A program made the translations under genes and the position numbers. DNA of 39,745 bases, from positions 1 through 39,745 of the forward strand of contig MRSU01000065.1 of NCBI GenBank assembly GCA_008369845.1, read 5' to 3'. The stretch comes from Trichomonas gallinae. Its lineage: Eukaryota. A model generated the notes under the pieces. The model had not been told where the DNA came from and ran no database searches. It worked only from the letters and a program-made list of their open reading frames with translations. Of this stretch, positions 4,821 through 39,525 are shown piece by piece. Position 1 is the first letter of the stretch. Each line of letters starts with the position of its first letter.

Positions 4821-4980
4821 TATATGAAATGCTTTGGGCCTATACAGTTCATACTATAAATTGTTTGTATATAAATATTAAAATTTATATTTTTGTAAAA
4901 TAATTTTTTTGTATTTTCGTAATTTTAAATCTATAGATAGCATTATTACAATCCTATCAATGAGAATAAACACAACAATT

Positions 4981-5496: not shown

Positions 5497-5579
5497 CAAA
5501 AATTAACGTGATGCGTCACTTTTTATTACATTTTTAATACATTTGACATATAAACTAACATTTTTGTCATTTTATATAT

Positions 5580-6618: not shown

Positions 6619-6650
6619 TTTAAAATGTGCACGTTTTGAATTTATTTAAA

Positions 6651-15000: not shown

Positions 15001-15826
15001 AATTATGGCTTTCGTCAATGAATTCAAATGTTCCGTGTAGATATTTAAAACAGACAATTACAGACAAATAATCAAAAATCGAAATTGTTCAAATAATTTT
15101 TGTAATTTGGTTCTAAAATTACAATTTACAACAGTTTCAAACATAAAATGCAAAAAACATCATAAAATTTCAAAAATATATGGAAGACATTTTTAAAAAG
15201 GGCTTTGAATAAATAAAAAGGGAAATTTCATCAAGAGTTATGTTAAACTTGATCTTAAATTGAATTATATTGTTCATTATATGGAGCTGGAGCTAAATAC
15301 AATAGAAAAGTGGCTGTTTATGATTCAATTTCTTTGTCAATTTTGTTTTTTTTTAAATATAATGATAATTTAGTATTGATTCAAGCCATTTAATGTAATG
15401 GCATCAAAATTAGAGAATGAAAACCTAGATTTTTTTTTGTGATAACCTTTTTGATATATTAGATTGATAGTTTGTTAGTATCTCATCGATATAAGCATTC
15501 ATTGATGATATGGAATTGATTTAGCGATATTATCTTTCCAAGTTTCATCAATTGCTCCAGTTTATTTATTTTTTTACTAGTTTATGTATATTTCTACTAG
15601 TTTATGTAACATATTATATTACTATTATAGTACAATCAATATTGTAACATCACATGGAACTTTTGCCTAATGATGTTTCCCTCGATAAAGAGGATCAAAT
15701 TTGTTGAGGGTGTTTCAAAATTTAGAGGGGGATAATTTACCAAAATTTAATTGTGATCTTTATTTATATACAAAATGAAATGATTATTTTGAGCGAACAA
15801 TTTCAAAAAAAAAAAAAAAAAAAAAC

Positions 15827-23500: not shown

Positions 23501-26500
23501 CTAGCAATCAAATCACGTTGAATTGCAGACATCTTTGTTCTAAGTTGAAGTCTCTGCAGATTCTCCTTAGATGCTGTTGAGATTGCGTCGACTGTTGTAA
23601 TTGATGGAGCTGCAATTTGAGCAAGCTGTGCTGGATTTTGCTGCAGCAAAGCTCGCTGGAATCCGATGAGTTTTCCGCTGATTTGTGTCGCGTTGTTTAC
23701 AGTGAGTGCTGTCATCTGTGATGCCTGGTTGAGTTGTGCTGTCTTGCTGAAGTCAACATCTTTGCATGAGGCAGCCATGTATTGAGGAGAAGCAGCCGCC
23801 ATAGAAAGATGCTGAAGAAGCAAAGTTTGAGCTGCTTGTGATTCTTTGTCTTCTTGTTTCACTTGCTGCTTGACTTGATCTGGATTGATACTGATCTGAT
23901 ATAGCTGCTGATAAGTTTGCTGCTGGAGCTGTGCGAGTTTATCAGGATTAAGCTGGATGTTCTTGATCGCATTAGTTTTGTCTGTTTGAGAAACTTCAGC
24001 GATTTCTGTTCTGATCTTGAGTAAGTCAGCGATGTTCGAGCAGAGCTGTGCTTGTGCGAGATCCTTCATGGAGTCAGCAAGTTCAGCATCGACTTTCTGA
24101 GCGTCAGGGACGAGCTTCTTCGCATCGACCTTGCGCTTAGTCTGCTGAATCAAAAGTGATTTGTCGAAGATTCTTGACTCCATAGACTTAGATTTGACAG
24201 TGTTCACTACATTGTCTAAGTCTTTCATCTTGATCATCTGCGTCGACATCAATGAGAAGATGACAACCAAGTCATCAACTTTGACATCGCTGACAGCATC
24301 AGCCAATGATGTGAATCCTTCACGAGTTGAATGCTGCAAAGCAAGCATTTTATCTTTGGCGTCTGTTAGCTTCTGCTCGTTTAAGTTTGCCTGCAAGATT
24401 TGGTTCGCTTGTCCACTCGTCAACATCTGATCGATGTTTGGAACTTTCTGGCGGATGACTTGGAGAACGTTGCCCATCTCGAGAGTCTGCTGGCAAGTAT
24501 TGAGAAGCTGCTGATGCTGGTGGAAGAATTCTACAGTTTTCTCGTTGTTGACTTTAACGAGATGCAATTGCTCTGGGTCATCAGCGAGTTTATCAGAGAC
24601 AGATTCATGGACTTTGTCAAGTAAAGCAGCTGTTGTATTCTTCAATGCAGACAAATCGTATTTGATGTCAGAACTCTTGGATGTCGCCAATGTTGCTGCG
24701 AGATTAGATATAACTGCCTGCTGATTCTCTAAATCTTCAATTCTTAATTGCGGAATTGCCATAGCAAACTCTTGTGGATGATTGATGTACTCGAGCTGCT
24801 GTGTAATCATCTGCGTGTAAGTGTCAACAAGTTCTCTGTCGACCGGCTGAGAAACATCAATGGCAGAAATCTTCTGCTGGAGCTGTGGGAGACAGTTCGT
24901 GTGGAACTGTTGTATTGCAACAAGAGATTGTGCGAGATTGAATCTCTGTAAAGCATCAACTACGAAGTCTTGTGCTTTGAGTGCTGTTTCTGTTTGAATT
25001 AAAGCATTCATCTTTGAAACGGATTCGTTTGTCTTTATCGTTTCGATGATCTTGTTGTTCGTTGATTTGAGCAAACCAATAGGCGTTGTTTCGACTGATG
25101 TATCAGCAATCATGTTATATACATCATCAGACGCTAAAACATTAAGTGAAGCATCAATCATTCTCATTGTCGTAACCATGTCTTCGGGTGAAGTGTTATG
25201 GATAACAACATCGAGTTGTTCCGGTCTGTCAGCGATGTTTACGAGTTGAATAAGTTTCTGCTGAACATCGACAAGCTTTGTTGGCGCAATTGGTGCTTTG
25301 AGGAGCTGCTGTCCTTCTGGAGACCTGACGTATTTGCACAATTCAGGGACTTTAGCAACAACAAGTTGCTGCAATGCTTGAAGTGTTTCGACAAGATTGA
25401 CTGCTGAGAAGCCTCTTTGTACTGATCTGTTGACATCTTCAACTGTCTTTAATTTGATTTCTTGTGTTGTCTGAGCGTTTGCAACAGCTTCGAGCAACTC
25501 TGTCTGCTTCATCTGGAATGTTTGAGCTGCTTCAGTGATATTTGTGTCTACTTGCTTTTCAAGAATGTTTTCTGTCATCAACTTCAAAGCGTGCTGCTGG
25601 ACAATGATTTCATCTGGTGTGAGTCTTGCGATTGTCTTCTTCAGTTCAATTGGATCGTTGAGAAGCTGAGACTGTTGCTGTATTGACATCATCGCGTTCG
25701 TTATTGCGTCTTCGTTGAGCTTGGCATCGATTGGCTTATCTAGCATTTTAACGATATCTGGGAATTCATCAAGCTGCTTCTGTCTGAGTCCTTCGATTCT
25801 CTGTGCGAGCATTACACCAAGATTAGACTCAACAAGCTTTCCTTGCTGTTGTACAGGAACAGAAGAAGTAACAACAGTTCCTAGTTGCGTAGTTTCAGCG
25901 ATGTTGTTCATGATTGTTGGAACTTCAGCTGTTGTGATTGAAATGATTGGATTAAGCGCAACTGATATTGTTGATGTGTTCTCTGTGGTTTGTTTAGCAA
26001 TGAGTTCTGGTGTAGAAGCCTTTGTTTGGATTATTGTTGGCTTGGCTGTCTTCTGCAGTGTGTCAAGTTTCGTTCTGTATTGGTTGAGAACAACTGTTGC
26101 ACTCTTTGCGACATTGAGACATGAAGCATCAGCAATTGCCGGCAAATAGATTTCAGCATTGACTAGTTTAACAGCTGTTGCATTTTCATTGAATTCTGTG
26201 ATTGGAACAACCATTGTTATCTCTGTCTTAAGAGCTTCTGCGCAGTTCTTGATCACATTTACTGATTCTTTGACCTTCTCGAAATCTTTTGCATCGTTAG
26301 AAATTTCGAATGACTTTTGGGCTTTGACGCAGTTCTGGATGATTGGTTCAATCCTTGATACATCAATTCCAGCTGCTTTGGCGCGAAGTGTTGCTATCTG
26401 CAATGACTGAGAAAGTGCCAAAACATCTGACATGTTCTGATCAAGTGAAACCAATGAGTCAGCAATGTCTTCGATTTGAACAGCAGAACCACGAATTGCG

Positions 26501-29500
26501 TTTCTCAGCTCTTGCTTGCCTGTGAGTGGAATTGGTGTCTTCCATGTATTGATTAGCGGTTGTATTGGTGTGATTGTCTTCAATGCAGCAGCAATCTCTT
26601 CCTTGTAGTTGTTAGGCATGGTTGTGAGTGTTGGAACAACAGTCTTAGTGAATGCTTCGTAAAGATTAGAGAACTGGTTGAGTTCCGATGGACCAATTGC
26701 AATTGATCTGTTTGCGTTCTTCAATAAAGCGTATGTCTGTCTTACGAATGATTTAACAGCTGGTGATGATGCTCCTGGGTTCTGAATAATGGAATTGTCG
26801 CATGCTGTAACAATTCTATCTAACTGGCTCAACAACATCTCGCCGAGACACATGTCGAATTGATGAAGTGTCGAAATAAGCTTGGTGTTGGACTCAGCGA
26901 CAGGATAAACGATGTCCTTGACTTGCTCGTTGTTCTTGAGTGTGTCAAGGAGAAGAGAAACAGCTTGTGATGCATCATTGAGTGAATCCCGGTTGACCAT
27001 TGCTGACGCGAATGATTTAGTCTGCATCAATAATTTAGCATCAGACTCTTTGACACTTGACTGAGCAACAGAATCATAATATTTGGTCTCATTGCTGAAC
27101 TTATCAGGAGACTGCGTGATTTTGTCGTGAAGAACTTTGATTGTGTTCTGAAGTTCAATGACTTGCTGTGCTGCATTAACTGCTGCTGCAGTTGCAACAT
27201 CACTTAAGAGATGGTTCCTCATTTCATAGTCTGTTTCGCATTGTGAGATTAATCTTACAACATCAACTAAAGCGCGAGTGTTACCTTCCTTGATATGTGG
27301 TGTATAGATGTTAACTGACTTGAGGACGTGGTTAGGAAGAGCATCCTTGTGATCATTGATTGCATTGAGATCTTCAACGATAGAAGCAATATATTCTTGT
27401 GGCAATTCTTTTTCGCCGCCTTCCATGATTAAGTCGCATGACTCTTTGATTGCACTTATGATATTGTTCTGCGCCATGACTGGTTCCTTTAAGATGAGCT
27501 GGTATGATTTTGGTTTACGAGTTTTAGGAAGGGAAGTGAAAACTTCTGAAACAAGTGCAACATTTTGTGTTGCTTCTTCAAGTTGATCGAAGTTTGAATC
27601 ATAAAGCGTTGGCAATAATGCACATGTTGCACTGTACAAATCATCGCAGACGATCTGTGCTTGGCGTGGCTTGAGTGTTGGCAAGTCTTTCATTACATTA
27701 GATGCAGTGATAATCAAATTATCGAACTGAGACTTGAGCTGTGGATTTTCGGCGACTTCTGGTGCTTGTGCAGCGGCCGTCAATTGAGCGACAAATTTCT
27801 GAAGCTGAGGATGAGCGTGCTGAATGAATTTAGTTGCTGTGGCTTTGTTCATGTGTGGGACAGAGATGATCTTAGCAATTGTACCTGATGAGTCATTGAA
27901 CGTCTTAAGCAAGTCGGTAAATTGTGATGAGTCAACCATTGGCTCAATTAACTCTGCATTTGATATAAGTTTCGGCATTTCATTCTTGATAGAGTTGAGC
28001 TGCTGTATTAAGACTTTCTCATCTTGTGCATTAAGTCTGTCTGTTGAGAATGCCTGCATGTTCTGTCTGATCTGAGAAACCAAAGCCTTTGCACTTGGAC
28101 TCTGATCAATTTGTCCGCATGATTCGATTTGGTTGAGAACGTTGTTGATCATTGCTGCTTGTTGTTGAACGACGACGATTGTTTCTTCGATATCATCATC
28201 TTCTTTGATAACTGGAACATTTTCGACCATGATTTCGACTTTCTTCGCTGTTGGAATGTTTCTGACAGCGGAAACGAAAACATTTGTCTTGTTCATAACT
28301 TCACTTATGTTGTTGTTCAGTTCAGAAACAAGAGAAAGATCTATTGCCTTCCTGACATTTATTGGGACCAAGTTGACTTTCTTCTGGAGCTGTATAAGTG
28401 TCTCTTTATCAAGCTTAGCCTGCTTGAGAGAGAACTGTGGACTCTGTAAGTGAGCATTGACTCTTTCGATTGTTGCGTTGATGGAATTCGTCCAATCATT
28501 GAGTGTCCTGTTGACGATTTCGTTGTTTGGATTTTCTGCGACAGAGTTTTGTACTTCGACGATCTTCTGCGAGAAATTGCCAAGAGATTGAGAAACTTCG
28601 GCAAGCTTAGCTTTGATAATTTCTGGAGAAACTTCAGGCTCAATGATTTCTTCAGCTTTAGGTCTCTCAGATTCTTCTTGGATAACAACTGGCTGAACGC
28701 CAGCTATCATCTGCAACCCGTATGGAACGAGCTGGTCAGCATTCTCGTTTGCCATGAATGATGGAACAGTGATAGCAATTTGCTGGAACTTCTGAGCGAG
28801 ACGGTTGATCTGGATGACAAATTCGTAGACTTCATCAGTGAGATTTTCACCCATTTCCTTAAGTGAGACTAAAACACTTGACATGTAATCATAGAGTCTG
28901 ACAGCGTCCTTGCGCAAATCATCGTTGTCTTCGACTTCAGGGAGAGTAATGTAATACTGGACAATCTGAGCGAGATGAGTGACGCAGTCGATGACAGCCT
29001 GGATCTGTTCAGGCGTTGGCTTAGCGAACTGCATCTTGTTTTGTCCTACCATGCTCTTCTTCTCTTCAAGCTTGGCGCTCGATGTCTGCTTCTGCGCAAG
29101 AGTGAGCGAGTCTTGTAATTGAGAAGTGATTTCTTCGTTGATTGTTGCGATCTTGACATTGTTCGTGACATCAACAATTCTCTTCGACAGGACTTGGATC
29201 TCGTTCATTGATTCGATTGCTTCCCTAACAATGTCGCATGCACATTTGACGACTTCATCGTTATATGGATCTTCAATTAATTCGTTTCTCCTATCGACCA
29301 TCTCTAAGTAAATCTTCTTGGCTTTAGCGAGTGTTGACATCGCACGATCGTTGAGTGTAGCATCCTGTTTGACACTATCTGAAGATGATGTTGTGACCAA
29401 TTCACTGATGAGATCTTGGAATGAATTCATAGACTCCTGGAATTTGAGAATGTAAGGAATGTTGGAGATGTTCTCTGACGGTTTCTCAGTGATAGCTTTA

Positions 29501-32500
29501 TCGATATCCATTGCGAGTCTTTCAATGATGACTGGCATTGCGACATCATTAGATACAGCTGAAAGCTGCTGAATATCATGCTGCAGCTGTGGCAGCATCG
29601 TCTTTAATTCGACAATGTTTGCTTGCGCGAGCGAAACTGCTCCGATATCTGCAACATTTGTCTCCAATGTACTCTGAGCCTGCTGAATGTCATAATATTT
29701 CGTCTTGACTTCGTTGAAAGCATATTTGATTCTATCCTGTGTCTGGTTATCAAGCTTGGAAAGAACATCTGGCGCCAAAATCGCTTCTTGGTTATTGACA
29801 AGATAAGCGAGATCGTTTGTGATCTTCGATGTTGTGACAGAAGTAATATTTCTTGATGAAATGAGATCTTCCTGGTGTTTGATCTGCATTAAGACTTGGT
29901 AATAAACAGAATAAAGATATGCTGCAGTCTGATCACTATTATATGGATACAATTCAGTGATCAAATCAGTTATATCTGCATCAACTTTGCTAAGCTCTGA
30001 AATGCATTCGAATCTCAATGCATCGTTTGCTGGAGACTGGGAAAGGTTGATAAGCAGCTGCTTGAGATTTGCAATGGACTGATTTGCAATGCTGAACAGT
30101 GATAAGACATGCTGTGGAATGTTTTGAAGATTTGGAGAATTCAAATCTAATGAAGACAAGGTATCAACAGTAACCAAAATTGTTTCATCGCCTGGAAGCG
30201 AAACAGCTCTTGATGCATTTGATGAACGCGACTCTGTAGCTGCTGATGAGTGTTGTTCGATGGCAGCTGATGAATGCTGTTCAACGTTTTCAATGATGAT
30301 TGGCTGGCCAGGAGTTTCTTCGATGAATGTTGGTCTCGCTGAAATTGATTGTCTCTCCATTAATATTGATGGTCTTGATGAAATCGAGACCCTCTCCTCC
30401 ATGATCTTCTTATCTTCATCATTTGTGATGATCTCGTTGACATTTCTCACGAGCTCTTTGAGTTTCCTGATTGATTTGACCGTGACAGGTAGATCAACGT
30501 TCTTTTCTCTTGCCAATGCAACGATTTCGTTTAGCTTTTGAATGTGGCTAGCAATCATTGGAATGTGCGGCTTGATGTGGATATTGAACTGCGAGGAGCT
30601 TTGTGCGTCTTTGATGGTTCCAGCAAGAACAGTCAGTGTCGAAGAAGATCCTTGCAATGACTGAATGATTGAGCTGACATCGATGCCGGCGGATGCTGCA
30701 TATAAAAGGAGCTCGTTAGCAATTTTGTCTTCTCTTGCTGATATACTGATAAGATCTTTAGTAATTGGAGGTGCCTCGACTTCTGGCTGCATCGAGAATG
30801 TTTGTTGATCTTGGATCCTTTCGATGAGCTGAACCTTGGCAGTTTCTGTTCTTTCTATTGTTGGCTTGACAATAGAAATAGTTGACTGTATCTTGTTCTG
30901 GATTTCGGCAACATATGGAGTAATGTCTTGGTTGCTCTGAACTAAATTCTGCGTTGTTGAAACGAGAGAATCAATCTGTGTATAGATCTGTGAGAACTGA
31001 TCTCTCAAGTCATCGTTGTAAGTCGAATCAACGAAGTTTCCGATTTGATCGTTGATTGTCGCCAACTGCTGGAATAATGCTTGTGCGCCAATGTCAACAA
31101 TCTTTTCTTCATTTAGATCGAGCTTGATTTCAATGGCATTGAGAAGATTCTCTGCACGAGAAATATTGAGGCCTTCTTCATTTGCACGCCAAACTATGTC
31201 TTCTTCTTTGATTTCGACGTCATCACCTTTATCATTGTCTAAATTGATCTTGTTGAACTGATAGGAATCATCCAATGTTATGTTTTCGAGATTAGGAACA
31301 TCGAAAAGCTCGACTTTCTTTTCTTCCTTCAACACATCGTCGATATTGATTTCGACGTTATTGATGTGCTCTTCGAAGTGGTTCATGAAGTCCATATCAT
31401 CGAGATAGACATCATCTTCGCCATCTTCATTAGATGTTTCATTTTGTTGTACGATTGGCTCTTCGAATGCAATTGTCGAAAGTTTGCCCATTGTGAGCGA
31501 AATTCTCTGGCCATTGTTGATGAAGCATGAGCCTTCTGTGCCAATCTGTACGCACTGGAACTCATCGAGCTGGTACAAGTAGATGAGGTTGATGATATAC
31601 ATACCAATTCTCTTGTAATCATCTGAATAGATGTTGAAGTAAATCTCTTCTGTTTGATCTAATGCTGAAATCATAACTTTTTCGTTGCCGATTTCGTTCG
31701 TGAGAATTGTGCCAATCGAGAAGTTGTAGATGATGTTGTTATCGTTGTTTGCATCCCTGATCATGATTCTCCATGGATTCATGCAGAGTTTGCCGATGAT
31801 TTGGCTGTTGTAATTAAGAGAATGTATGTTTGTAATGTATGTTTCTTCGCTGAATCCTCTGTAATCCATGATGAGACCGATGTAGTAGAACATGGCTGGT
31901 GTTTTATCAAGGACAGGAAGATGTGTCAAGAAAGCGAGTAACTTCTTCTTGAACATCTCGCTGATCTCGAAATCAGCTGGGCATATTGAGTTCCATTCTG
32001 GTCTCTTCAATGTGCTGACCATCAAAGTGACAGCACTTGGATTCTCAGCCATTGCATACAAAGATAAAGCAATTAACTGAGTCATTGAATCATCGCTGAC
32101 ATTGATTATCCTGTTGATGACGAGATACTTGCAATCATTGTAAACAGAGCTCAAGATTGTGTAATCGCGGAGCATCTGGTTGGAATACAAGAAGTATCTT
32201 CTCTTGACGAGAATAGGAACAGAAAGATTCGCCTGGAAAACAAGTGGCTGCATAATGTCGAGTGGTATATAGTCTCCTTCATCTTCTCTTATCCAGCATG
32301 TGTAGCCGATCCATGTTCCATATCCGAATTCATTGCAAACGTCTTTGAGGAGATCTTCGACTTTTGTCATAGATGGGAATGTCTTTGTCACAACAACATT
32401 TGAAATGGAAATGAACTTGGCAGTAGAAGATTCATCCAACAGAATGAGTCCATCTCCATCTGTAGCATCGATTGACATGAGATTTTCTGTCGTCAACAAT

Positions 32501-35500
32501 CTCCTGTATTCGTTGTTCTGGCCCTGGTGAACGAGGATATATTTGCCGGATGCATATGGCATGACTAAGAAGTAGCAGATGACTTTGATGATGCTCTCGT
32601 AGTCGAGTGTTGTGGAGATGCTGAACTGCGGTGGATCTGTGATGAACATTCTCTTCGAGACCAAAACATCGATGAGGCCAGCCCTGTTGTCGAGGATTGC
32701 CTGCAATTCTGGTGTGACTTTCTGGAGCTCTTCTCTCTTGGTGAGATATGGATAGAAGATGTACTTGTATGATCTGAGGAGAATGAACATTTCGTAGACA
32801 TCAGGTGTCGTGAAAATGAATGTTTTGACTCTTCCTGTAACGAGAGAAACGCGGACAACCAAGTGATCAATCATGCGGCTGAAATCGCAAACGTAGTTGT
32901 AAGTTATTTTCTCGTCCAAGTCGACAATTTTTTCGACTTCATCCTCGAAGCCTCTGACTCTACCAAATATGTGAACACCAAGTGGGCCAATAGAAACAGT
33001 CACTTCTTGTGCCGCAAGAATGAACTGATCATCTGTCATCTGGACTTTGAACAAGGTGCAGCCGAAATGCAATGTTTGCTTAGCAATGCCGATGTATTTC
33101 TGCATGGCGATGTCCCTGTGGATGAGTTTTCCGTTGCGGATTGTATCCATAATGTATTGCTCGTGGATTTTAGATCCATCTGTGCCAACTGGATAGAGCT
33201 TGTCCATTGGTGGAATTGTGATCTTCATTGGATCCTTCTCGCGGTTATCTGCGTAGATTGAGTAGATCGCGAGCTCTGTTGCTTTTGTGTCTGATGTGAC
33301 TGGGACACCAGACATGATGTTCTTCTTGACATCCTGGTAGAATGAGCGACAGATGTACGGGAAGAATCTGTCTGAGTGTGTGAAGACGAGGAACCTTCTG
33401 ATGAATAAGAATTCGAATTTGCCTGTGTACTGCTCAGGAATAGAAAGCCAGAGATCAAGTGGTGTTGGCGCCTTTCCTGGATTGTCAACATATAATGTAA
33501 GGCCAGCTGGATACTCGATGTTGAAGCATTCGCCAAGGATTGGAATGATCTGATGAAGTGGATGAGTGATATTGACGTAAATATCGATTGTTGTGTCGTT
33601 GTATGTGACTTGGATCTGGAAGATTGTCGGATACAGTGTCAGCCACATGTTGTCGCATGGGAAGTAATGTCCGAGAATGTCCTTTGGATGGATCCAGCGA
33701 TATTCATCGTTCGTGAGTTTGAGGAGTGGCGTCCATTCTCGTGATGCTTCAAGATGCAAAGCTCTGACAGCTCTCTTCCTGACCATTTCACCTGTGTATC
33801 TCATGTCGAACGCGATGTTGAGGATGCGCTGCTTCTTATCGTCCCATCTCTTTGACTTGAGAACGACTCTGTCGATTGACGTATTGACGTCTTCAGTCTT
33901 CGGATTGAAGCCTTCTCTTCTCATGTCGAGGAAGATGTTGTAGAGCTCAACTGTTCTGTTAATGAATGCGTGTGGACGCTCAGGATTATTCAGGATGCAC
34001 AAGATCTGCGCTGGCTCATCTGAATCGTCCTGTGAGAACTTGACAGCGAGTTCGTTTGCTATTGTTTCGCACTTGATGAAGTGTCTGTACTCGCATATGG
34101 TGAAAGTGCGTGTGAGATCCTCTGAGACAACGCGAACAGTCTGCGGGCTCGCAACCATCAGCGCTGAGATGTCTGCTCTTGTTCCTTTCTTGAATTTGAC
34201 GTAAGTAATTTCGACACTGATGGATCCGAAAGTTGGAAGTGTTCTCGCGAGTGCTATGTATTTGAACATTGCATCTTTGTGGCCTTTGCATGGCTTGTGC
34301 TTCATCATGCTCCAAAGTTCTGACTTCGTCGTCTTATTAACTTTGAAGTGAGGTGGGAAAAGTGGCTCCAAAATCTCCGGGAGCTCTTCTTTCTTCGGTT
34401 TGTGCTTAGACTCAGCAATTAAAGCGTAGCCAGCTAGTTCGAGTGCGACATCGCGAATCATAGAAACTTCTCCACTCAAGATGAGATCTTTCGCGTCGTA
34501 ATAAAGAATCTTAAGAGCGCTGTGATCTGTGAGTTCTGTCTTGTTGATGACGAAGAAGTATCTGAAGAAGTAGAGCGTGTCGTATTGCCTTGTCTGCTCT
34601 GGAATTGTCAATGTTGTGTTGAGTGGAACCATCTTGTTATCTTCCTTGTAGAAGAATGTATATCCTTGGCAGAATGTGATGTCAAACAAGACGCCAACTT
34701 TGGGAATGAGCGATGTAACTGGTTCATCGATCGAAACAGTCATCGTTGACTTCTTGCCGAAGATGTTGACGAAAGTGATCTTCGCGAACTGTGGATGGAA
34801 GTAGATGATTGACTCGCGATATGGCTGAGCATCTCTTAAGACCATTCCTGGCTTCAACCATTTGATGATGCCTTTGAGAACTTGAACCATTGTTGAGTAT
34901 GGAGTGTTAGGATCATGTGGGAGCTGTGAAAGCAATGTTTTTGCGAGTTCTTCTTGCGGAGTGTCGATGTCGAACCATTGTGCTGGCTTGAGAATGTTGT
35001 CGCTGAGGAGACCAAACCTCAAGTCGACCATAGGACCATGAACAACGCCTTTCTCGTCCTTCCAGCCACCTGAGAGTCTCAAAGCCATTTCTTCGAGTCT
35101 CTTCTTCTCCATCTCGCGGTTGAAGATTGCGACTTGTCTCATGATCTTCAAGTTGTATGAGATGACGCAGTCCATGTCGTTGACATTATCACTCGTGAAC
35201 GTACCGTAAACTATCCTTCCTGTTTTAGGAGGATATTGGTACTTGATGATGTAGTTGTTTCCGATAATATAGAAACCTTTAAGCGAGTGATATGTGATTT
35301 TCTCGACGACTGGCTTTCCTTTTGCATTGAGGATAGAAAGCTGGAGTGGTGTGATGACGAATGTGCCGTGCTGAGCTTCTCTTGGTGGATCGAAGTCATC
35401 CCAGTAATGCTCGAATGTGAAAGATTCTGAACCAAATCCTTCGATTTTTCTGACAAGTCCGATGTACTTCTTCGCGGCGCTTTTCTGAGTCATATCTTCT

Positions 35501-38175
35501 GATTCTTGGATCATCTTGCGGAACTTCTTCTCTAGAGATGAGCCGACAGACACTGATGATGGAACAAGCTCTTTGAGATTGTGTTTCGTCGTGCGGATGT
35601 TTTTGACGCCAAATGCATAAAGAGAATACATCGCGAGTTTGAGTGCTGTTTCAGTGTCAACTTTGATGTCGTTCTCATTCAAGTAGTTCCTGCAATCGTG
35701 CAATGCTTGAATGGCTGATGATGTCTGCTGTAAAACTTCCTTTGAGAGAATGAAGAATCTCCTCTTGACGTGTAGATGCCTGAAATAGTTGATCTGCTCT
35801 GGAATTGTCTTTCTGAGATCAAGTGGATATAATTGTTTGTCGACTCCTTCATACCACAAAGTGTAACCGAGCATTGGCTGCATGTGATTCTCTGAGAACA
35901 ACCATGGAACAATTTCATCGACTGTTTTTGTGATTTCTGTCTCGCATTTGAAATGGGAGCCATCAGGGAACGTATACCTGATCTTATATTTCGGCTCCAA
36001 CAGATAAAGAGTCATATCGTTCTGAAGGCAAAGGCTTTGAATGAGATCTGTATCTCTCATGAATGTGAAGATTTCATCCATCATGTGAACCAAAATAACC
36101 TTCTCGTGCTTGAAAGGAATCGATAGATAATAAGAAATTGCGCGCTTGACGATTTCACCTGTGAATTTCTTGTCGAATGCGTATTGTTTAATTTCCTTTG
36201 TATTTGCTGAGATGTCGTCTGTCGCGTACAAGTTGATCTGCGTCTTCTTGTTGATTAACTTCTTGAAGTTGCCTGCAACAGTAGCATAACGCTTAGAACG
36301 ATCCTGGAAAATCAAGTTTGTTATCTCTCTGTATCTCGAAATTGTTTTCGCCATCTGTTCAACGCCTTTTCCTGAGAAAGTGTATGTCTGGAAACTATTC
36401 CTCTTCGGAGAGAATTTGATAATCAAATCTTGCGCTGTTGTAACTGAAACAATCTCTGAATAGGAAATCTTTTCTTCGATTAGTCCTGAAATGCCATCAT
36501 ATATTGCGAGTCTGTATGGCGAGAGATAAACGACGGCTGGATCAAGAACGTAATCTTTGTAGCCGACAGTGACAGTGACATAGCATTCGTATTTGCGCTC
36601 AGCGAAGCCGACCAACTTGCGGCAAAGTTTGATGAATTTTCTCATCGCGTTGAATCTGTTGCAGGTTCCGTTGTTTTGGTAGAAATCTCTAAGCACTGGG
36701 CCCCTTCCTGCTCCTTTTCCTTTCTTGGCGAGTCTCGCTGGCATCCACTGTGAGATATCGTCGGGAACTTTCTTGATATTAAATTTTTCGTCGGCCATTA
36801 ATCTGTAGGCGCAATATTTGAGTAATTCTTCCTTCGTGAATTCGATTTCTGAATGATTGACGCAGTCTATGACGTCCTTGAATGCAATTTCTGTTGTGAT
36901 TGCTGTCTCAAGATCTTCGAGTGTAAAGATATAATACTGGCGAGCGAAGAAAACTTCATTGATCGCGCGTGTTTGTTCTGGTAATGATTTGTTGATTGAT
37001 AGATAAACAGCCTTCCGGCTTTTGTTCAAGACGCACAGTGTGTAGCATCTGTAGGAGCCGATCTTGAAGTATGTTGCAATGTCAGCGACTAAATCTGAGA
37101 CTTTCTTGGAAATATCGAGAGTTAATTTTTGTGATTTGAAATGCTTTGAGTGAACCATGATAGGCTTCAAAAGCTTGATGACGTATACATGTGTTTTCTC
37201 GTTTGGTGTGTAATCTTCGAGGAATTTCTCTGGTTCTACCCATCTGGCATCAGATCCATCTTGATTTGATAATAAAATGCCGTATTTATCATCTTGATAT
37301 CTTCCTAGAGCTGTTAAAGCAGCCTGAAGCATCTCTGGCTGGCTCATGCCGAGCTTGTAGCTTTTTGGAGCTCCGCGTTCCGAAAACATGTAATGTGTTT
37401 CGAGAGTGATGCTTTCACCTTCTTGTTGGATGCTTTGATCTGCCATGGCACCGAATCCCATCATTGTCTGGAATTCCGTAAGCTGCTCGTTGATATTTAA
37501 TTCGAGATCGATACCTACTTGTGCAGCGTTTTGATCTCCTTCGACACTTTGAAGCTGTGATGGATCATAGTCGCTATCGTAGAAATCTGCGAAGTTTAAG
37601 CTTGCGTATTGTCCTGTTGCATATAATTGTTCATCACTTCCGCTTGCAATTCCGTAGTGTGAATTTACTAATGACTGGAAGCCACTTGTACTGTTAAACA
37701 TTCCTGAACTGTAATTATAATTCGATGAATATAAAATCGAAAGATCCGTTTGATCTTGGCCAACTGGCTGTGCCATGTTTTCTTGATTTTGAGAATTGTA
37801 TTGATGTGAATTTTGATAATTTTGATTTGGATCATAATTTGATTGATATCCTTCAACGCCAGTGACTTGAGAATTAACAACCATGGATTGTCCACCTTGA
37901 TATTGTATGTTAATATTCGTATTTGCAAGAACTAGGCCCAAGATGTAACCATCTTGGATGCCTTGTTGTCTTAAAGTGATTTCAGGATCAATCCAATCTG
38001 ATGCTCCATCTGGACGTTGATAAAATGCATCGTATTCCATACTAGGATTAATATTTAGATACCGCTTCGCAAAATCAATTGCGAGATTACCCGGCTGATC
38101 TAAATAATACTGAAATGGAGAGAATTCTGGATGTGTTTGTGGTTCTACAGTATATAAACCAACAATAGAATCCAT
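20515..38175 (-). CDS. Giant (5886 aa) talin-like protein: five tandem FERM heads, long helical rod, I/LWEQ-like C-terminus
   Basis: Uninterrupted 17,661 bp ORF. Talin-head motifs recur five times (see the repeat feature). The rod is A/Q/L/I/S/T-rich and amphipathic. The terminal helix LKRLELEAKVIRARTLLEKYEKDLAKL resembles the THATCH dimerisation helix. Confidence 0.85.
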   Translation of the reverse strand: MDSIVGLYTVEPQTHPEFSPFQYYLDQPGNLAIDFAKRYLNINPSMEYDAFYQRPDGASDWIDPEITLRQQGIQDGYILGLVLANTNINIQYQGGQSMVVNSQVTGVEGYQSNYDPNQNYQNSHQYNSQNQENMAQPVGQDQTDLSILYSSNYNYSSGMFNSTSGFQSLVNSHYGIASGSDEQLYATGQYASLNFADFYDSDYDPSQLQSVEGDQNAAQVGIDLELNINEQLTEFQTMMGFGAMADQSIQQEGESITLETHYMFSERGAPKSYKLGMSQPEMLQAALTALGRYQDDKYGILLSNQDGSDARWVEPEKFLEDYTPNEKTHVYVIKLLKPIMVHSKHFKSQKLTLDISKKVSDLVADIATYFKIGSYRCYTLCVLNKSRKAVYLSINKSLPEQTRAINEVFFARQYYIFTLEDLETAITTEIAFKDVIDCVNHSEIEFTKEELLKYCAYRLMADEKFNIKKVPDDISQWMPARLAKKGKGAGRGPVLRDFYQNNGTCNRFNAMRKFIKLCRKLVGFAERKYECYVTVTVGYKDYVLDPAVVYLSPYRLAIYDGISGLIEEKISYSEIVSVTTAQDLIIKFSPKRNSFQTYTFSGKGVEQMAKTISRYREITNLIFQDRSKRYATVAGNFKKLINKKTQINLYATDDISANTKEIKQYAFDKKFTGEIVKRAISYYLSIPFKHEKVILVHMMDEIFTFMRDTDLIQSLCLQNDMTLYLLEPKYKIRYTFPDGSHFKCETEITKTVDEIVPWLFSENHMQPMLGYTLWYEGVDKQLYPLDLRKTIPEQINYFRHLHVKRRFFILSKEVLQQTSSAIQALHDCRNYLNENDIKVDTETALKLAMYSLYAFGVKNIRTTKHNLKELVPSSVSVGSSLEKKFRKMIQESEDMTQKSAAKKYIGLVRKIEGFGSESFTFEHYWDDFDPPREAQHGTFVITPLQLSILNAKGKPVVEKITYHSLKGFYIIGNNYIIKYQYPPKTGRIVYGTFTSDNVNDMDCVISYNLKIMRQVAIFNREMEKKRLEEMALRLSGGWKDEKGVVHGPMVDLRFGLLSDNILKPAQWFDIDTPQEELAKTLLSQLPHDPNTPYSTMVQVLKGIIKWLKPGMVLRDAQPYRESIIYFHPQFAKITFVNIFGKKSTMTVSIDEPVTSLIPKVGVLFDITFCQGYTFFYKEDNKMVPLNTTLTIPEQTRQYDTLYFFRYFFVINKTELTDHSALKILYYDAKDLILSGEVSMIRDVALELAGYALIAESKHKPKKEELPEILEPLFPPHFKVNKTTKSELWSMMKHKPCKGHKDAMFKYIALARTLPTFGSISVEITYVKFKKGTRADISALMVASPQTVRVVSEDLTRTFTICEYRHFIKCETIANELAVKFSQDDSDEPAQILCILNNPERPHAFINRTVELYNIFLDMRREGFNPKTEDVNTSIDRVVLKSKRWDDKKQRILNIAFDMRYTGEMVRKRAVRALHLEASREWTPLLKLTNDEYRWIHPKDILGHYFPCDNMWLTLYPTIFQIQVTYNDTTIDIYVNITHPLHQIIPILGECFNIEYPAGLTLYVDNPGKAPTPLDLWLSIPEQYTGKFEFLFIRRFLVFTHSDRFFPYICRSFYQDVKKNIMSGVPVTSDTKATELAIYSIYADNREKDPMKITIPPMDKLYPVGTDGSKIHEQYIMDTIRNGKLIHRDIAMQKYIGIAKQTLHFGCTLFKVQMTDDQFILAAQEVTVSIGPLGVHIFGRVRGFEDEVEKIVDLDEKITYNYVCDFSRMIDHLVVRVSLVTGRVKTFIFTTPDVYEMFILLRSYKYIFYPYLTKREELQKVTPELQAILDNRAGLIDVLVSKRMFITDPPQFSISTTLDYESIIKVICYFLVMPYASGKYILVHQGQNNEYRRLLTTENLMSIDATDGDGLILLDESSTAKFISISNVVVTKTFPSMTKVEDLLKDVCNEFGYGTWIGYTCWIREDEGDYIPLDIMQPLVFQANLSVPILVKRRYFLYSNQMLRDYTILSSVYNDCKYLVINRIINVSDDSMTQLIALSLYAMAENPSAVTLMVSTLKRPEWNSICPADFEISEMFKKKLLAFLTHLPVLDKTPAMFYYIGLIMDYRGFSEETYITNIHSLNYNSQIIGKLCMNPWRIMIRDANNDNNIIYNFSIGTILTNEIGNEKVMISALDQTEEIYFNIYSDDYKRIGMYIINLIYLYQLDEFQCVQIGTEGSCFINNGQRISLTMGKLSTIAFEEPIVQQNETSNEDGEDDVYLDDMDFMNHFEEHINNVEINIDDVLKEEKKVELFDVPNLENITLDDSYQFNKINLDNDKGDDVEIKEEDIVWRANEEGLNISRAENLLNAIEIKLDLNEEKIVDIGAQALFQQLATINDQIGNFVDSTYNDDLRDQFSQIYTQIDSLVSTTQNLVQSNQDITPYVAEIQNKIQSTISIVKPTIERTETAKVQLIERIQDQQTFSMQPEVEAPPITKDLISISAREDKIANELLLYAASAGIDVSSIIQSLQGSSSTLTVLAGTIKDAQSSSQFNIHIKPHIPMIASHIQKLNEIVALAREKNVDLPVTVKSIRKLKELVRNVNEIITNDEDKKIMEERVSISSRPSILMERQSISARPTFIEETPGQPIIIENVEQHSSAAIEQHSSAATESRSSNASRAVSLPGDETILVTVDTLSSLDLNSPNLQNIPQHVLSLFSIANQSIANLKQLLINLSQSPANDALRFECISELSKVDADITDLITELYPYNSDQTAAYLYSVYYQVLMQIKHQEDLISSRNITSVTTSKITNDLAYLVNNQEAILAPDVLSKLDNQTQDRIKYAFNEVKTKYYDIQQAQSTLETNVADIGAVSLAQANIVELKTMLPQLQHDIQQLSAVSNDVAMPVIIERLAMDIDKAITEKPSENISNIPYILKFQESMNSFQDLISELVTTSSSDSVKQDATLNDRAMSTLAKAKKIYLEMVDRRNELIEDPYNDEVVKCACDIVREAIESMNEIQVLSKRIVDVTNNVKIATINEEITSQLQDSLTLAQKQTSSAKLEEKKSMVGQNKMQFAKPTPEQIQAVIDCVTHLAQIVQYYITLPEVEDNDDLRKDAVRLYDYMSSVLVSLKEMGENLTDEVYEFVIQINRLAQKFQQIAITVPSFMANENADQLVPYGLQMIAGVQPVVIQEESERPKAEEIIEPEVSPEIIKAKLAEVSQSLGNFSQKIVEVQNSVAENPNNEIVNRTLNDWTNSINATIERVNAHLQSPQFSLKQAKLDKETLIQLQKKVNLVPINVRKAIDLSLVSELNNNISEVMNKTNVFVSAVRNIPTAKKVEIMVENVPVIKEDDDIEETIVVVQQQAAMINNVLNQIESCGQIDQSPSAKALVSQIRQNMQAFSTDRLNAQDEKVLIQQLNSIKNEMPKLISNAELIEPMVDSSQFTDLLKTFNDSSGTIAKIISVPHMNKATATKFIQHAHPQLQKFVAQLTAAAQAPEVAENPQLKSQFDNLIITASNVMKDLPTLKPRQAQIVCDDLYSATCALLPTLYDSNFDQLEEATQNVALVSEVFTSLPKTRKPKSYQLILKEPVMAQNNIISAIKESCDLIMEGGEKELPQEYIASIVEDLNAINDHKDALPNHVLKSVNIYTPHIKEGNTRALVDVVRLISQCETDYEMRNHLLSDVATAAAVNAAQQVIELQNTIKVLHDKITQSPDKFSNETKYYDSVAQSSVKESDAKLLMQTKSFASAMVNRDSLNDASQAVSLLLDTLKNNEQVKDIVYPVAESNTKLISTLHQFDMCLGEMLLSQLDRIVTACDNSIIQNPGASSPAVKSFVRQTYALLKNANRSIAIGPSELNQFSNLYEAFTKTVVPTLTTMPNNYKEEIAAALKTITPIQPLINTWKTPIPLTGKQELRNAIRGSAVQIEDIADSLVSLDQNMSDVLALSQSLQIATLRAKAAGIDVSRIEPIIQNCVKAQKSFEISNDAKDFEKVKESVNVIKNCAEALKTEITMVVPITEFNENATAVKLVNAEIYLPAIADASCLNVAKSATVVLNQYRTKLDTLQKTAKPTIIQTKASTPELIAKQTTENTSTISVALNPIISITTAEVPTIMNNIAETTQLGTVVTSSVPVQQQGKLVESNLGVMLAQRIEGLRQKQLDEFPDIVKMLDKPIDAKLNEDAITNAMMSIQQQSQLLNDPIELKKTIARLTPDEIIVQQHALKLMTENILEKQVDTNITEAAQTFQMKQTELLEAVANAQTTQEIKLKTVEDVNRSVQRGFSAVNLVETLQALQQLVVAKVPELCKYVRSPEGQQLLKAPIAPTKLVDVQQKLIQLVNIADRPEQLDVVIHNTSPEDMVTTMRMIDASLNVLASDDVYNMIADTSVETTPIGLLKSTNNKIIETIKTNESVSKMNALIQTETALKAQDFVVDALQRFNLAQSLVAIQQFHTNCLPQLQQKISAIDVSQPVDRELVDTYTQMITQQLEYINHPQEFAMAIPQLRIEDLENQQAVISNLAATLATSKSSDIKYDLSALKNTTAALLDKVHESVSDKLADDPEQLHLVKVNNEKTVEFFHQHQQLLNTCQQTLEMGNVLQVIRQKVPNIDQMLTSGQANQILQANLNEQKLTDAKDKMLALQHSTREGFTSLADAVSDVKVDDLVVIFSLMSTQMIKMKDLDNVVNTVKSKSMESRIFDKSLLIQQTKRKVDAKKLVPDAQKVDAELADSMKDLAQAQLCSNIADLLKIRTEIAEVSQTDKTNAIKNIQLNPDKLAQLQQQTYQQLYQISINPDQVKQQVKQEDKESQAAQTLLLQHLSMAAASPQYMAASCKDVDFSKTAQLNQASQMTALTVNNATQISGKLIGFQRALLQQNPAQLAQIAAPSITTVDAISTASKENLQRLQLRTKMSAIQRDLIASNPQIIQAISAIAGKPQAQSLDISTDEIKEYQGEMKLLVSTNSAPAAVKTITRESSNDKIVKKLAVLNNLIQITKPSTPVVTTFSNIAGLDSILNTNLNIDVATVSAAPLATKNYRSELNSVANAAQTASDVIPILSQFSHLPISECKNIFAKTNTEAIQLVEKLMKTKYSQEIDQLVMELSKLSPKLIASLARNLTLVTDQKVRAMLVTDPAQLLQVVNEIITVSTDLSNTQSAQRFRQMCTVLFQALKNFDAALVNVQSAKTEPIKSFEKLVKAIDTNDLEIISRELIDFSAMKVKRMTLNEQAADLDPIIDQIVQIDKAVQKYYIADASADQQLSQVLQTIKANSIQILKRETPNVFVQVGELADTKAVDLYFNAAKTEIDDASTRLIEAIQARNKDKQQDCINLIIKNFASCQSAMYRGFSVSNQTMSTSIATDYITMIYNSTTATRNIIDITKMRAVSSTMIKRATRSYNRIIDSMSSMLQESHNDEEQKTPWENAKCTFIQSVSNTINTLSSTLATITSSKIPDVTLSILSSEKANFDKLLPQITANVKAIKEINTNKQAEVDFSDAINELSEAILGFQKEAYNVKSTVDITAAAFVSVVDKTLKVLNKMNTLTDVVPRTPDIESADMLPKSFDIPPVPDVSSTDISVCYNELQNSIAQFNEKNTIFFQIVNHPQATNQYIVQSFTPYMQQMQDMITRVLACSATCFSISHQSYLADAAGALTVNFAQLMNSLKDRFLLRGDFDGVSKAYSEKVFELINGIISASSEANEQAASANDELSAIRQKLHPAVSGLGNVKHEFEAMIAEIKDQLVTRFSELSRTTINEPCTSITSATQKLLILACGKLNVVENVDKLAEKSMTLLEALNEAIQASRTIIQQKPAIPEATIAPVLSKVAKSGKELSQIKTLSLEATKLAEAIAQLCEVTQNLAATTEATAKRKSAPKTGQNPSGGATSHAVKSNLLKRLELEAKVIRARTLLEKYEKDLAKLG
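31560..37420 (-). repeat. Five tandem ~390-400 aa talin-type FERM modules (F0-F1-F2-F3)
   Basis: The motif (G/C)(Y/L)T....PL....(I/L)PEQ.....RR(F/Y)F recurs near 37045, 35865, 34665, 33500 and 32305, a spacing of ~1160-1200 nt. Each copy is followed by Y.D.K..I....V....A.ELA and by A..KYI..AR....FG. Boundaries are approximate. Confidence 0.85.
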
Positions 38176-38811: not shown

Positions 38812-39525
38812 TTATTTCTTAAGATTGAGCTTGAGGTTCAACTTTGGCATAGCAGGATTGGCAAGGTCAGTCTTAGGAGCATCTCCTCCATCGTTTGCTG
38901 GTTTGGTTGGTAAAGAGAATTTTGTGAGTCCTTTTCCGAGTGTGTTACCAGCTGGAGCTGCTGCAGCAGGCTTTTGTTCAGTAGATTCGGCTAATTTGGC
39001 TGATTTGTCTGTTTCTTTGATGGATGAATGAATAACTGTAGGAACTGTAGCTTCTTCGATCAAATGGTGTCTTGAAGCAGGAGAGAACTCCTTCCAGAAT
39101 CCATTTGATGCTTCGTTTACCTTTGAAGCAGCAACTGGTTTTGCAGTAACTTGATTAGTCTGACTATTCATTGCTAATGCGCGTTGATTTTTAACAAATG
39201 AAGGCTCAGGAATGAATGATGGAGCGATATAATGCGAAGATTCTGTTGATATTTGTTTTGGTGAAGATAATATTTTTGTGAATATTGAAGGGGCGAATGT
39301 AGAAGATCTATATGTAGGAACATAAGAATACTTTTCTTCGTATTCATCAACTTGGCGCTCTAATGCAATTGTTGGCTTAGATTTTGGAAGTTTTTCTAAT
39401 GTTTTAGAACTGCGCCTGAAAAACTTCCTGATAGAATACCTGAGATCTTGGAGGTACCGGGACTGAATGAATGTGATTGATAAAACAATAATTAAGATAA
39501 TAAATAATATCGAATTAACACTCAT
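38812..39525 (-). CDS. Hypothetical protein with an N-terminal signal anchor and an S/P/A/K-rich disordered tail
   Basis: ILFIILIIVLSITFI is followed by a basic segment (SIRKFFRRSSK); the remainder is low complexity. CCTTT (M5-like core element) lies on the minus strand at 39542-39546. Confidence 0.75.
   Translation of the reverse strand: MSVNSILFIILIIVLSITFIQSRYLQDLRYSIRKFFRRSSKTLEKLPKSKPTIALERQVDEYEEKYSYVPTYRSSTFAPSIFTKILSSPKQISTESSHYIAPSFIPEPSFVKNQRALAMNSQTNQVTAKPVAASKVNEASNGFWKEFSPASRHHLIEEATVPTVIHSSIKETDKSAKLAESTEQKPAAAAPAGNTLGKGLTKFSLPTKPANDGGDAPKTDLANPAMPKLNLKLNLKK

What the first reader, a model, noticed from the sequence alone, without database searches (positions are those of the whole stretch)
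31560..37420. Five complete talin-type heads in tandem in one polypeptide
Seen: a ~395 aa unit repeats five times (aa ~255-2200). Established: the talin head is F0-F1-F2-F3 (~400 aa), and each subdomain has a counterpart here. F0 GIWLEAGKALDYY corresponds to ARWVEPEKFLEDY. F1 WLDHGRTLREQ...LLLRRKFF corresponds to PLDLRKTIPEQ...LHVKRRFF. F2 YVQARDDILNG....DKACEFAG corresponds to YYDAKDLILSG....DVALELAG. The F2/F3 junction EAKVRYVKLARSLKTYG corresponds to DAMFKYIALARTLPTFG. Canonical talins have a single head. Inference: this is a multivalent membrane or receptor-clustering adaptor in a lineage not known to have integrins, so it may belong to an undescribed adhesion system. The units are highly diverged, so the amplification is old. 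I cannot check whether this architecture has already been described.
Basis: partly seen in the sequence, partly recalled or inferred. Interest (0 to 1): 0.92.

Follow-up and report, generated by a model that had tools for sequence, protein, structure and literature searches.

The report
Five-headed giant talin of trichomonads
A trichomonad gene encodes a 5,886-residue protein with five copies in a row of the head of the adhesion protein talin, followed by a predicted talin-like rod, and it likely ties the cell membrane to the actin skeleton in these parasites.

Summary
One uninterrupted ORF (20515-38175, minus strand, 5,886 aa) holds five ~395-aa units. Each aligns to canonical talin heads over F0-F3 (hhalign P 99.3-99.8%). 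A model of units 3-5 folds as ubiquitin-ubiquitin-helical-PH, and its top 12 Foldseek hits are talin heads. The architecture is a family: 27 of 35 long relatives have exactly five heads (named ones in Trichomonas vaginalis, Tritrichomonas foetus and T. musculus), and 8 are single-headed, talin-sized proteins. Heads group by position, so the array is old. Rod and THATCH homology is only moderately supported. Best reading: a divergent talin homologue that likely links membrane to actin. Recent papers place talin's origin in Amorphea, and my searches found no report of this protein family. The scan's own earlier notes held nothing on it.

The parts
20515..38175 (-). Single ORF, 5,886 aa, no intron needed; aa n starts at 38175-3(n-1)
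   Evidence: full-length relatives of 5,710-5,977 aa
37900..38175 (-). Lone extra F0-like (ubiquitin-like) domain, aa 1-92; not folded here
   Evidence: matches profile positions 3-99 of the family head HMM at 40 bits; present in 25 of 27 five-headed proteins
37414..37890 (-). Acidic N/Q/S-rich linker, aa 96-254, with no Lys or Arg; length varies among relatives
   Evidence: composition; first head starts at aa 36-862 among 23 proteins
36295..37413 (-). Head 1 (F0 255-336, F1 337-417, F2 418-523, F3 524-627)
   Evidence: hhalign P 99.6, 349 columns; FERM_M E 0.0011 and weak FERM_f0 E 0.015; boundaries set by eye from the alignment; not folded
35119..36240 (-). Head 2 (aa 646-1019)
   Evidence: hhalign P 99.6, 347 columns; FERM_M E 6.6e-6; not folded
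33907..35034 (-). Head 3 (aa 1048-1423), the closest to talin in sequence
   Evidence: hhalign P 99.8, 354 columns; phmmer to talin-1 head E 1.8e-8; AF2 model
32734..33870 (-). Head 4 (aa 1436-1814)
   Evidence: hhalign P 99.3, 347 columns; AF2 model
31555..32676 (-). Head 5 (aa 1834-2207), the most diverged
   Evidence: hhalign P 99.5, 335 columns; VIA four-lobe match to kindlin-3 (Z 25.4, rmsd 4.1, 349 aligned) and to the FERM-folded talin head (Z 22.9, rmsd 6.7, 354 aligned)
31186..31554 (-). Acidic neck, aa 2208-2330 (26% Asp+Glu)
26239..31185 (-). First rod segment, aa 2331-3979; aa 2686-3982 is homologous to the rod of single-headed parabasalid proteins; not folded
   Evidence: 191 bits against the single-head HMM, positions 421-1597; no significant Pfam hit
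23131..26238 (-). ~1,000-aa insert absent from single-headed paralogues; holds an unannotated ~125-150-aa repeat (aa 4109-4233, 4247-4380, 4400-4524, 4864-4990, and a weak copy near 4700-4810)
   Evidence: gap in the single-head HMM match; repeat in 15 of 17 five-headed, 0 of 8 single-headed, 0 of 4 canonical, 0 of 8 reversed proteins
21160..23130 (-). Last rod bundles, aa 5016-5672; predicted chain of 4/5-helix bundles
   Evidence: AF2 pLDDT 82.2 for aa 5059-5886; talin R11R12 aligns to model 331-608 (Z 12.6, rmsd 8.8, 258 aligned)
20650..21159 (-). THATCH (I/LWEQ)-like five-helix bundle, aa 5673-5842
   Evidence: HIP1R THATCH core Z 13.4, rmsd 4.6, 166 of 194 aligned, rank 2 of 48,161 chains; hhalign to the canonical talin end P 72.5%; no Pfam I_LWEQ hit
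20518..20610 (-). Separate terminal helix, aa 5856-5885, after a low-confidence linker; sits where talin has its dimerisation helix
   Evidence: helix 798-827 of the model; conserved L-x-L-E-x-x-V-x-x-x-R motif in 27 of 35 long proteins; aligned to the canonical terminal helix

Best explanation
This is a 5,886-residue protein with five talin-type heads in tandem, a predicted helical-bundle rod and a THATCH-like end, and it likely works as talin does, as a mechanical link between the membrane and actin filaments. Shown: five complete F0-F1-F2-F3 units, a lone extra F0, a rod shared with single-headed talin-sized parabasalid proteins plus a 1,000-aa insert, and exactly five heads kept across Trichomonas and Tritrichomonas. 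Inferred history: a single-headed parabasalid talin homologue multiplied its head to five before these genera split and before the gene itself duplicated (at least three five-headed genes in T. vaginalis). Inferred mechanism: the C-terminal bundle and helix would dimerise and bind F-actin, and the rod would bear load. The five heads would form a packed array at a membrane, in which each position has its own, non-canonical role (lipid, receptor tail or spacer) instead of five equal NPxY-binding sites. Odds: real talin homologue about 0.85; membrane-to-actin linker about 0.55.
For: Heads: hhalign P above 99% for 5 of 5 units. The profile of the 5 units against the PDB puts talin-1 first at 63 bits, then PTPN21 39, moesin 34, kindlin-2 30. 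With F0 removed talin still leads, 58 against 48.5 bits. AF2 of units 3-5 gives pLDDT 88.1, pTM 0.81; Foldseek ranks 1-12 are all talin heads. Tail: all-helical model; Foldseek top hits are vinculin, Sla2 THATCH, talin and alpha-catenin. Full-length talin aligns colinearly (model 1-777 to talin 1485-2479, Z 13.8, rmsd 27.3, 491 aligned). R11R12 is followed by a THATCH match, the same order as in talin. The last 230 aa best match the last 230 aa of canonical talin among 16 windows (P 72.5), and reciprocally among 11 windows (next P 2.1); the reversed control reaches at most 14.8. Eight single-headed relatives are 2,481-2,737 aa, the size of canonical talins, with the same tail. Heads group by position. 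Dictyostelium talin-A bears force without integrins (PMC12686525, abstract, introduction and passages), and T. vaginalis crawls using actin (PMC10846614, section 3).
Against: No Pfam talin-rod or I_LWEQ hit in the window protein or in 8 of 8 single-headed relatives, while P0067 and P0069 give them. A canonical talin HMM hits heads in 21 of 25 parabasalid proteins but gives only weak (9 bits or less), out-of-register rod hits. With only the 8 single-headed sequences, none of the 8 rod windows matches the canonical rod (P 4% or less), including the last one. Another canonical rod window scores P 58.7 against the tail, and Z near 13 may be only a common helical-bundle arrangement (notes); the unrelated HHM protein ties or leads in both. 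The Trp of I/LWEQ is not kept in the alignment. For head 5, kindlin-3 superposes better than talin, and ESM Atlas features of head 3 tie SNX17-like, FRMD8-like and IRS-FERM clusters at 0.93. The F3 profile alone found no FERM protein in the PDB. F3 R-W and most RA-type lysines are lost. The T. vaginalis orthologue is listed in a hydrogenosome membrane proteome (PMC3174187, table passage). No functional data exist here.
Confidence: 0.55

Rival explanations
1. It is a structural element of a parabasalid-specific fibre or organelle tether. The heads have become a rigid spacer or ruler and the rod a long strut, with no role in substrate adhesion.
For: Ligand residues are lost while core residues are kept. 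Head number and spacing are nearly fixed: periods 365-442 aa in 23 proteins, always five. pTM 0.81 for three heads suggests a defined packing (coordinates not inspected). The orthologue is listed in a hydrogenosome membrane fraction. The rod has a family-specific repeat insert.
Against: The THATCH-like end and the terminal helix are the best-kept part of the tail in both five-headed and single-headed proteins, which fits actin binding. Variable F3 surfaces can also mean fast co-evolution with parasite receptors. Cytoskeletal giants often co-purify with organelles (own knowledge).
Confidence: 0.2
2. One reading: five equivalent F3 sites cluster the tails of one adhesion receptor by avidity.
For: All five heads keep a PH/PTB-like F3 lobe. 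Integrin-free amoebae use talin with other NPxY receptors such as SibA (PMC12686525 passages).
Against: R/K-W in 0 of 90 units and DFG in 0 of 98, against 16 and 19 of 19 canonical heads. F3 identity is 20-25%. F3 sequences differ by position and show no homogenisation. R358 and W359 matter for integrin-tail binding (PMC2958305 passages).
Confidence: 0.15
3. It is not a talin homologue but a convergent mosaic: kindlin-like or FRMD8/SNX17-like four-lobed FERM units joined to an independent vinculin/HIP1R-type helical rod.
For: Kindlin-3 leads the VIA ranking for head 5. Atlas features do not single out talin. No sequence homology of the mid rod. A long branch separates parabasalid from canonical heads.
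Against: Sequence profiles rank talin well above kindlin (63 against 30 bits; 58 against 30). F2 is 103-110 aa with no PH insertion. Single-headed relatives have talin's size and domain order.
Confidence: 0.1

Closest known systems
Talin (animal talin-1/2; Dictyostelium TalA/TalB; PDB 3ivf, 6vgu, 8vdq)
   Same: Four-lobed head F0-F1-F2-F3 with the same core motifs; helical-bundle rod; THATCH-like last bundle and terminal helix; short F1 loop (8-9 aa) as in most non-animal talins of the set. The model's heads fit the compact FERM-folded talin head better (TM by target 0.55-0.62) than the linear form (0.35-0.37).
   Different: Five heads plus a lone F0 instead of one head; 5,886 aa instead of about 2,500; ~1,000-aa repeat insert; F3 R-W, DFG and most RA-type lysines lost; no Pfam rod or I_LWEQ match.
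Single-headed parabasalid proteins TVAG_101030 and TVAG_329890 (annotated only as FERM domain-containing or hypothetical)
   Same: Same head family, rod and C-terminal motif; the likely form from which the giant arose.
   Different: One head, no lone F0, no repeat insert; they keep the F1 lysines (7 of 8) that the window's five heads lack (0 of 5).
Kindlin (FERMT2/3)
   Same: The only other family here whose structures cover all four lobes; best VIA superposition for head 5.
   Different: Kindlin has a PH domain inserted in F2 and no rod (recalled); weaker sequence match.
Dictyostelium FrmA
   Same: A multi-FERM protein that controls turnover of adhesion sites (title and review passages in PMC9197732): a precedent for more than one FERM domain in an adhesion protein.
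   Different: Two talin-like FERM domains and no talin rod or THATCH (recalled; the paper itself is not held).
HIP1R / Sla2
   Same: THATCH core is the best structural match to the last bundle; Sla2 REND-THATCH covers the last two bundles.
   Different: ANTH head instead of FERM heads, about 1,000 aa (recalled).

Membership tests
Talin | Four-lobed head F0-F1-F2-F3 (ubiquitin, ubiquitin, helical, PH/PTB) | tested here: met
   hhalign for 5 of 5 units; AF2 and structure search for units 3-5
Talin | Head closer in sequence to talin than to other FERM families | tested here: met
   63 bits against 39 or less; 58 against 48.5 or less without F0
Talin | Head closer in structure or phylogeny to talin than to kindlin and others | tested here: inconclusive
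   Foldseek ranks talin first, VIA ranks kindlin-3 first, Atlas features tie three families; no non-talin outgroup in the trees
Talin | A single N-terminal head | tested here: not met
   five heads plus a lone F0; met by the 8 single-headed relatives
Talin | F3 R358/W359-type site for NPxY receptor tails | tested here: not met
   R/K-W in 0 of 90 units and 0 of 8 single heads against 16 of 19 canonical; role of the residues from PMC2958305 passages; mapping of the numbers to the alignment column is recalled
Talin | Rap1-binding basic residues of the F0/F1 RA folds | tested here: inconclusive
   F0 beta-2 Lys/Arg: 17 of 19 canonical, 1-11 of 18 per unit, kept in the window only by head 2; F1 lysines 0 of 5 in the window, 7 of 8 in single heads; K16 role from PMC4861126 passages; column mapping recalled
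Talin | Rod of 4- and 5-helix bundles (R1-R13) | tested here: inconclusive
   only the last 828 aa were folded: bundles with Z 12-14 to talin rod domains; no sequence match in the mid rod
Talin | C-terminal THATCH (I/LWEQ) domain | tested here: inconclusive
   Z 13.4, rmsd 4.6, 166 aligned to HIP1R THATCH; hhalign P 72.5 but 1.2 with 8 sequences; no Pfam hit
Talin | Terminal dimerisation helix | tested here: inconclusive
   a separate, conserved terminal helix is present; whether it dimerises is open
Talin | Binds F-actin and vinculin, localises to adhesions, bears force | not testable with these tools
   needs experiments
Kindlin | PH domain inserted in F2, and no rod (recalled) | tested here: not met
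   F2 is an uninterrupted 103-110-aa helical lobe; about 3,680 aa follow the heads
ERM / 4.1 / PTPN21 / MyTH4-FERM | Three-lobed FERM without F0 | tested here: not met
   these chains align only from model residue about 870 (F1) on, while talin and kindlin align from about 787 (F0)

The most novel reading that the evidence does not exclude
Parabasalids run an integrin-free, talin-based force-coupling system that has been overlooked. It has two classes of talin: a talin-sized single-headed form, and a giant five-headed form in which tandem heads make a packed, position-specialised membrane-binding array. This would put talin outside Amorphea as an inherited gene, push its origin deeper in eukaryote history, and supply a candidate mechanical core for Trichomonas attachment to host epithelium.
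Probability: 0.45. Interest if true: 0.92.

Novelty: new variant of a known kind. Interest (0 to 1): 0.8.

Why it matters
[quoted passage not shown] A 2025 paper places talin's origin in an Amorphean ancestor and never mentions trichomonads (PMC12686525). Here are at least five named candidate genes in T. vaginalis, three of them five-headed. They make an open question directly testable: what couples the membrane to actin when Trichomonas turns amoeboid and attaches to host cells? They also bear on when talin arose. For talin structural biology, a natural array of five heads with a predicted defined packing, fixed in number over a long time, was not found described in the papers searched. One caveat on range: a talin homologue in the brown alga Ectocarpus is mentioned in 10.1101/2020.04.29.069435 (passage), so this is not the first claim outside Amorphea.

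Tried and rejected
Assembly artefact: rejected, since independent genomes of T. vaginalis, T. foetus and T. musculus give the same five-head layout. Recent tandem duplication or gene conversion: rejected, since units are 20-28% identical and group by position. Self-BLAST of the whole protein and of the rod found no repeat; only profiles did. phmmer of the rod against the PDB: 0 hits at E 1. The 'shorter' homologue search scored 7,995 candidates and found none, although the exhaustive search later found many fragments, so that blank means nothing. F0-only profile: weak hits to ubiquitin and to talin F1. F3-only profile: 3 unrelated weak hits. Sequencing runs: no RNA holder listed. One DNA run holds a relative about 94-95% alike over the rod only, and the two RNA runs gave nothing usable; none of this is evidence on expression. 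No whole genome is held for the window, so its own paralogues and possible receptors were not searched. No loci were obtained from the metagenome collection, so gene neighbourhoods were not compared. No dimer prediction and no Atlas look-up of the tail were obtained, so both questions are open. The window's neighbours (kinesin, Arf-like, thioredoxin-like, GPN GTPase, Frag1, aminotransferase) show no link to the gene. Earlier scan notes: none on this family. Literature searches: talin+Trichomonas+FERM 5 papers; TVAG_252220 1 paper; talin+parabasalid 0; talin+Trichomonas 17, listing only, 2 opened; six other gene or accession ids 0; talin+Metamonada+evolution 1, unrelated by title; adhesome distribution 17, of which 16 listed; FrmA 0; six phrases for multi-headed or giant talin 1, unrelated by title. 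Subscription papers (such as Kusdian 2013 and Patel 2008), figures (Fig. 2 of PMC10846614 charts T. vaginalis) and supplements were not seen and may mention these genes.
Full report
The gene. The finding lies in one ORF, 20515..38175 on the minus strand, 5,886 aa, open from start to stop. The given coordinates are aa 253-2206. Its nearest named relative is Trichomonas vaginalis TVAG_252220, 60% identical over the head region, so the window is inferred to come from another trichomonad. The neighbours are ordinary eukaryotic housekeeping genes.

The repeat is real. Pfam finds five FERM_M stretches. Cut into five units of about 395 aa, the pieces are 20-28% identical, and an HMM built from any four finds the fifth at iE 3e-27 to 7e-42. 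Profiles of each unit from 18 proteins align to a profile of 18 canonical talin heads over 335-354 columns from F0 to the end of F3, P 99.3-99.8%. AlphaFold2 on units 3-5 with 23 sequences gave pLDDT 88.1 and pTM 0.81, with two ubiquitin-like lobes, a helical lobe and a PH-like lobe per unit. Units 1 and 2 were not folded.

Which FERM family. The five-unit profile ranks talin-1 heads first in the PDB (63 bits, continuous from F0 to F2), then PTPN21 (39), moesin (34) and kindlin-2 (30). Without F0, talin still leads, 58 against 48.5. Foldseek ranks 1-12 are talin heads, and the compact FERM-folded form fits better than the linear one. Two results temper this. VIA superposes head 5 best on kindlin-3 (Z 25.4, rmsd 4.1, 349 aligned) ahead of talin (Z 22.9, rmsd 6.7, 354 aligned). 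ESM Atlas features of head 3 tie SNX17-like, FRMD8-like and IRS-FERM clusters at 0.93. Only talin and kindlin cover all four lobes, and F2 has no inserted PH domain. The units are therefore talin-type.

A lone F0-like domain sits at aa 1-92, before an acidic linker with no Lys or Arg. After the heads come about 3,680 aa. The last 828 fold as a chain of helical bundles and a separate terminal helix (pLDDT 82.2, pTM 0.50). Foldseek's best matches are vinculin, Sla2, talin and alpha-catenin. In a search of 48,161 chains the last bundle matches the HIP1R THATCH core (Z 13.4, rmsd 4.6, 166 aligned; rank 2), and the two bundles before it match talin R11R12. By profile, the last 230 aa best match the last 230 aa of canonical talins (P 72.5, best of 16 windows and reciprocal best of 11; reversed controls 14.8 or less), though another rod window reaches 58.7. 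Against this: no Pfam I_LWEQ or rod hit, only weak out-of-register rod hits from a canonical HMM, no rod match at all with the 8 single-headed sequences alone, and Z near 13 is within the range of common helical bundles. Tail homology is moderate, not proven.

A family. Of 72 proteins examined, 35 are 2,100 aa or longer. Of these, 27 have exactly five heads (23 distinct after removing 4 near-duplicates; 25 of 27 also carry the lone F0), 8 have one head, and none has another number. Two shorter proteins, probably fragments, have 3 and 2 heads. The queries were multi-head pieces, which favours multi-head hits. Of 25 proteins looked up, named five-headed members are T. vaginalis TVAG_252220, TVAG_445430 and TVAG_107970, Tritrichomonas foetus TRFO_05648 and T. 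musculus KAK8899504.1. Named single-headed members are TVAG_101030 and TVAG_329890. All are annotated only as hypothetical or FERM-type proteins. The rest have no name, so the family's range beyond these genera is not known.

History. The single-headed proteins are 2,481-2,737 aa. Their HMM matches each of the five heads, then aa 2686-3982 and aa 5015-5885 of the window protein, skipping about 1,000 aa. That insert holds an unannotated repeat of about 125-150 aa, found in 15 of 17 five-headed proteins and in none of 8 single-headed, 4 canonical or 8 reversed controls. In trees of single heads, units group by position: FastTree on 111 rows; IQ-TREE quick, LG+G4, on 59 rows, with support 99, 99, 95 and 97 for units 1, 2, 4 and 5, and unit 3 unresolved. 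The 59 rows were 8 of the 18 five-headed proteins, 8 single heads and 11 of 19 canonical heads. Parabasalid and canonical heads are separated by one long branch (support 100, with a long-branch warning), and no non-talin outgroup was available. The array thus predates the Trichomonas-Tritrichomonas split and the paralogue duplications. Whether the gene was inherited or acquired long ago cannot be told.

What the heads have lost. In canonical talins F3 is the best-kept lobe (48.9% mean identity) and carries R/K-W in 16 of 19 and DFG in 19 of 19. In parabasalid heads F3 is 20-25% identical within a position, lower than F1 (26-36%). R/K-W occurs in 0 of 90 units and 0 of 8 single heads, and DFG in 0 of 98. 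R358 and W359 are the residues tested for integrin-tail binding (PMC2958305, passages). The RA-type lysines are also eroded: the window keeps the F0 one only in head 2 and neither F1 one in any head, while single-headed relatives keep the F1 pair in 7 of 8 (K16 role from PMC4861126, passages; mapping of residue numbers to columns is recalled). Core motifs are kept. So the heads are folded talin heads whose canonical binding surfaces have changed, each position in its own way. This argues against five equal receptor-clustering sites.

Mechanism. Most likely the protein works as talin does: the tail would dimerise and grip F-actin, the rod would bear load, and the head array would hold a membrane or parasite-specific receptors. 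Dictyostelium talin-A does this without integrins (PMC12686525: abstract, introduction, passages), and T. vaginalis crawls using actin (PMC10846614, section 3). All functional steps are inferred. The main rival is a structural strut or organelle tether. The high pTM of three heads, the fixed number and spacing, and the listing of TVAG_252220 as 'Unknown' in a hydrogenosome membrane proteome (PMC3174187, table passage) fit that rival.

Membership and novelty. Two defining features of canonical talin were tested and not met (one head; the F3 R-W site), so I do not file it as a canonical talin. It is a talin homologue of a new architecture. My ten literature searches found no description of it. 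[quoted passage not shown] PMC9453864 and 10.1101/2020.04.29.069435 have no metamonad passage (term searches), though the latter cites a talin homologue in Ectocarpus. 10.1101/2020.06.12.142943 mentions Trichomonas only in a formin analysis (passages). Dictyostelium FrmA is a precedent for several FERM domains in one adhesion protein (PMC9197732, passages). Subscription papers, figures and supplements were not seen.

Verdict. Observation confirmed; interpretation partly supported; new variant of a known kind; interest 0.8.

Noticed in passing
P0046 (TVAG_101030), P0056/P0074 (TVAG_329890), P0038, P0039, P0042, P0044, P0051, P0058: Single-headed, talin-sized (2,481-2,737 aa) parabasalid-type proteins with the same rod and tail. 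They are the best candidates for a conventional trichomonad talin and keep the F1 lysines.
   Followed up: partly
window 23131-26238 (-), aa 3980-5015: Unannotated helical-looking repeat of about 125-150 aa with a conserved Pro, 2-6 copies, found only in five-headed proteins (15 of 17); not folded.
   Followed up: partly
window 37900-38175 (-): Lone F0-like domain cut off from head 1 by a variable acidic linker; kept in 25 of 27 five-headed proteins, so probably functional.
   Followed up: partly
P0049, P0064, P0070: Short (581-631 aa) proteins with one parabasalid-type head and a short tail; they form their own branch. Origin and completeness unknown.
   Followed up: no
P0030 (TVAG_107970), P0032: Five-headed paralogues of about 5,000 aa on long branches whose last residues lack the conserved terminal-helix motif; they may have lost the talin-like end.
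   Followed up: no
P0019: A 7,437-aa member with an 860-aa N-terminal region and six copies of the insert repeat.
   Followed up: no
window 6627-8858 (+), 4981-5499 (-), 3708-4820 (+), 13138-13929 (+), 14284-15057 (-), 18761-19849 (-): Kinesin motor, Arf-family GTPase, thioredoxin-like protein, GPN-type ATP/GTP-binding protein, Frag1/DRAM protein and class I/II aminotransferase by Pfam; ordinary.
   Followed up: no
window 2484-3632 (+), 9193-11733 (-), 15827-18541 (+), 38812-39525 (-): ORFs of 382, 846, 904 and 237 aa with no Pfam hit above cut-off; the 904-aa one has weak HEAT/TOG-like hits.
   Followed up: no
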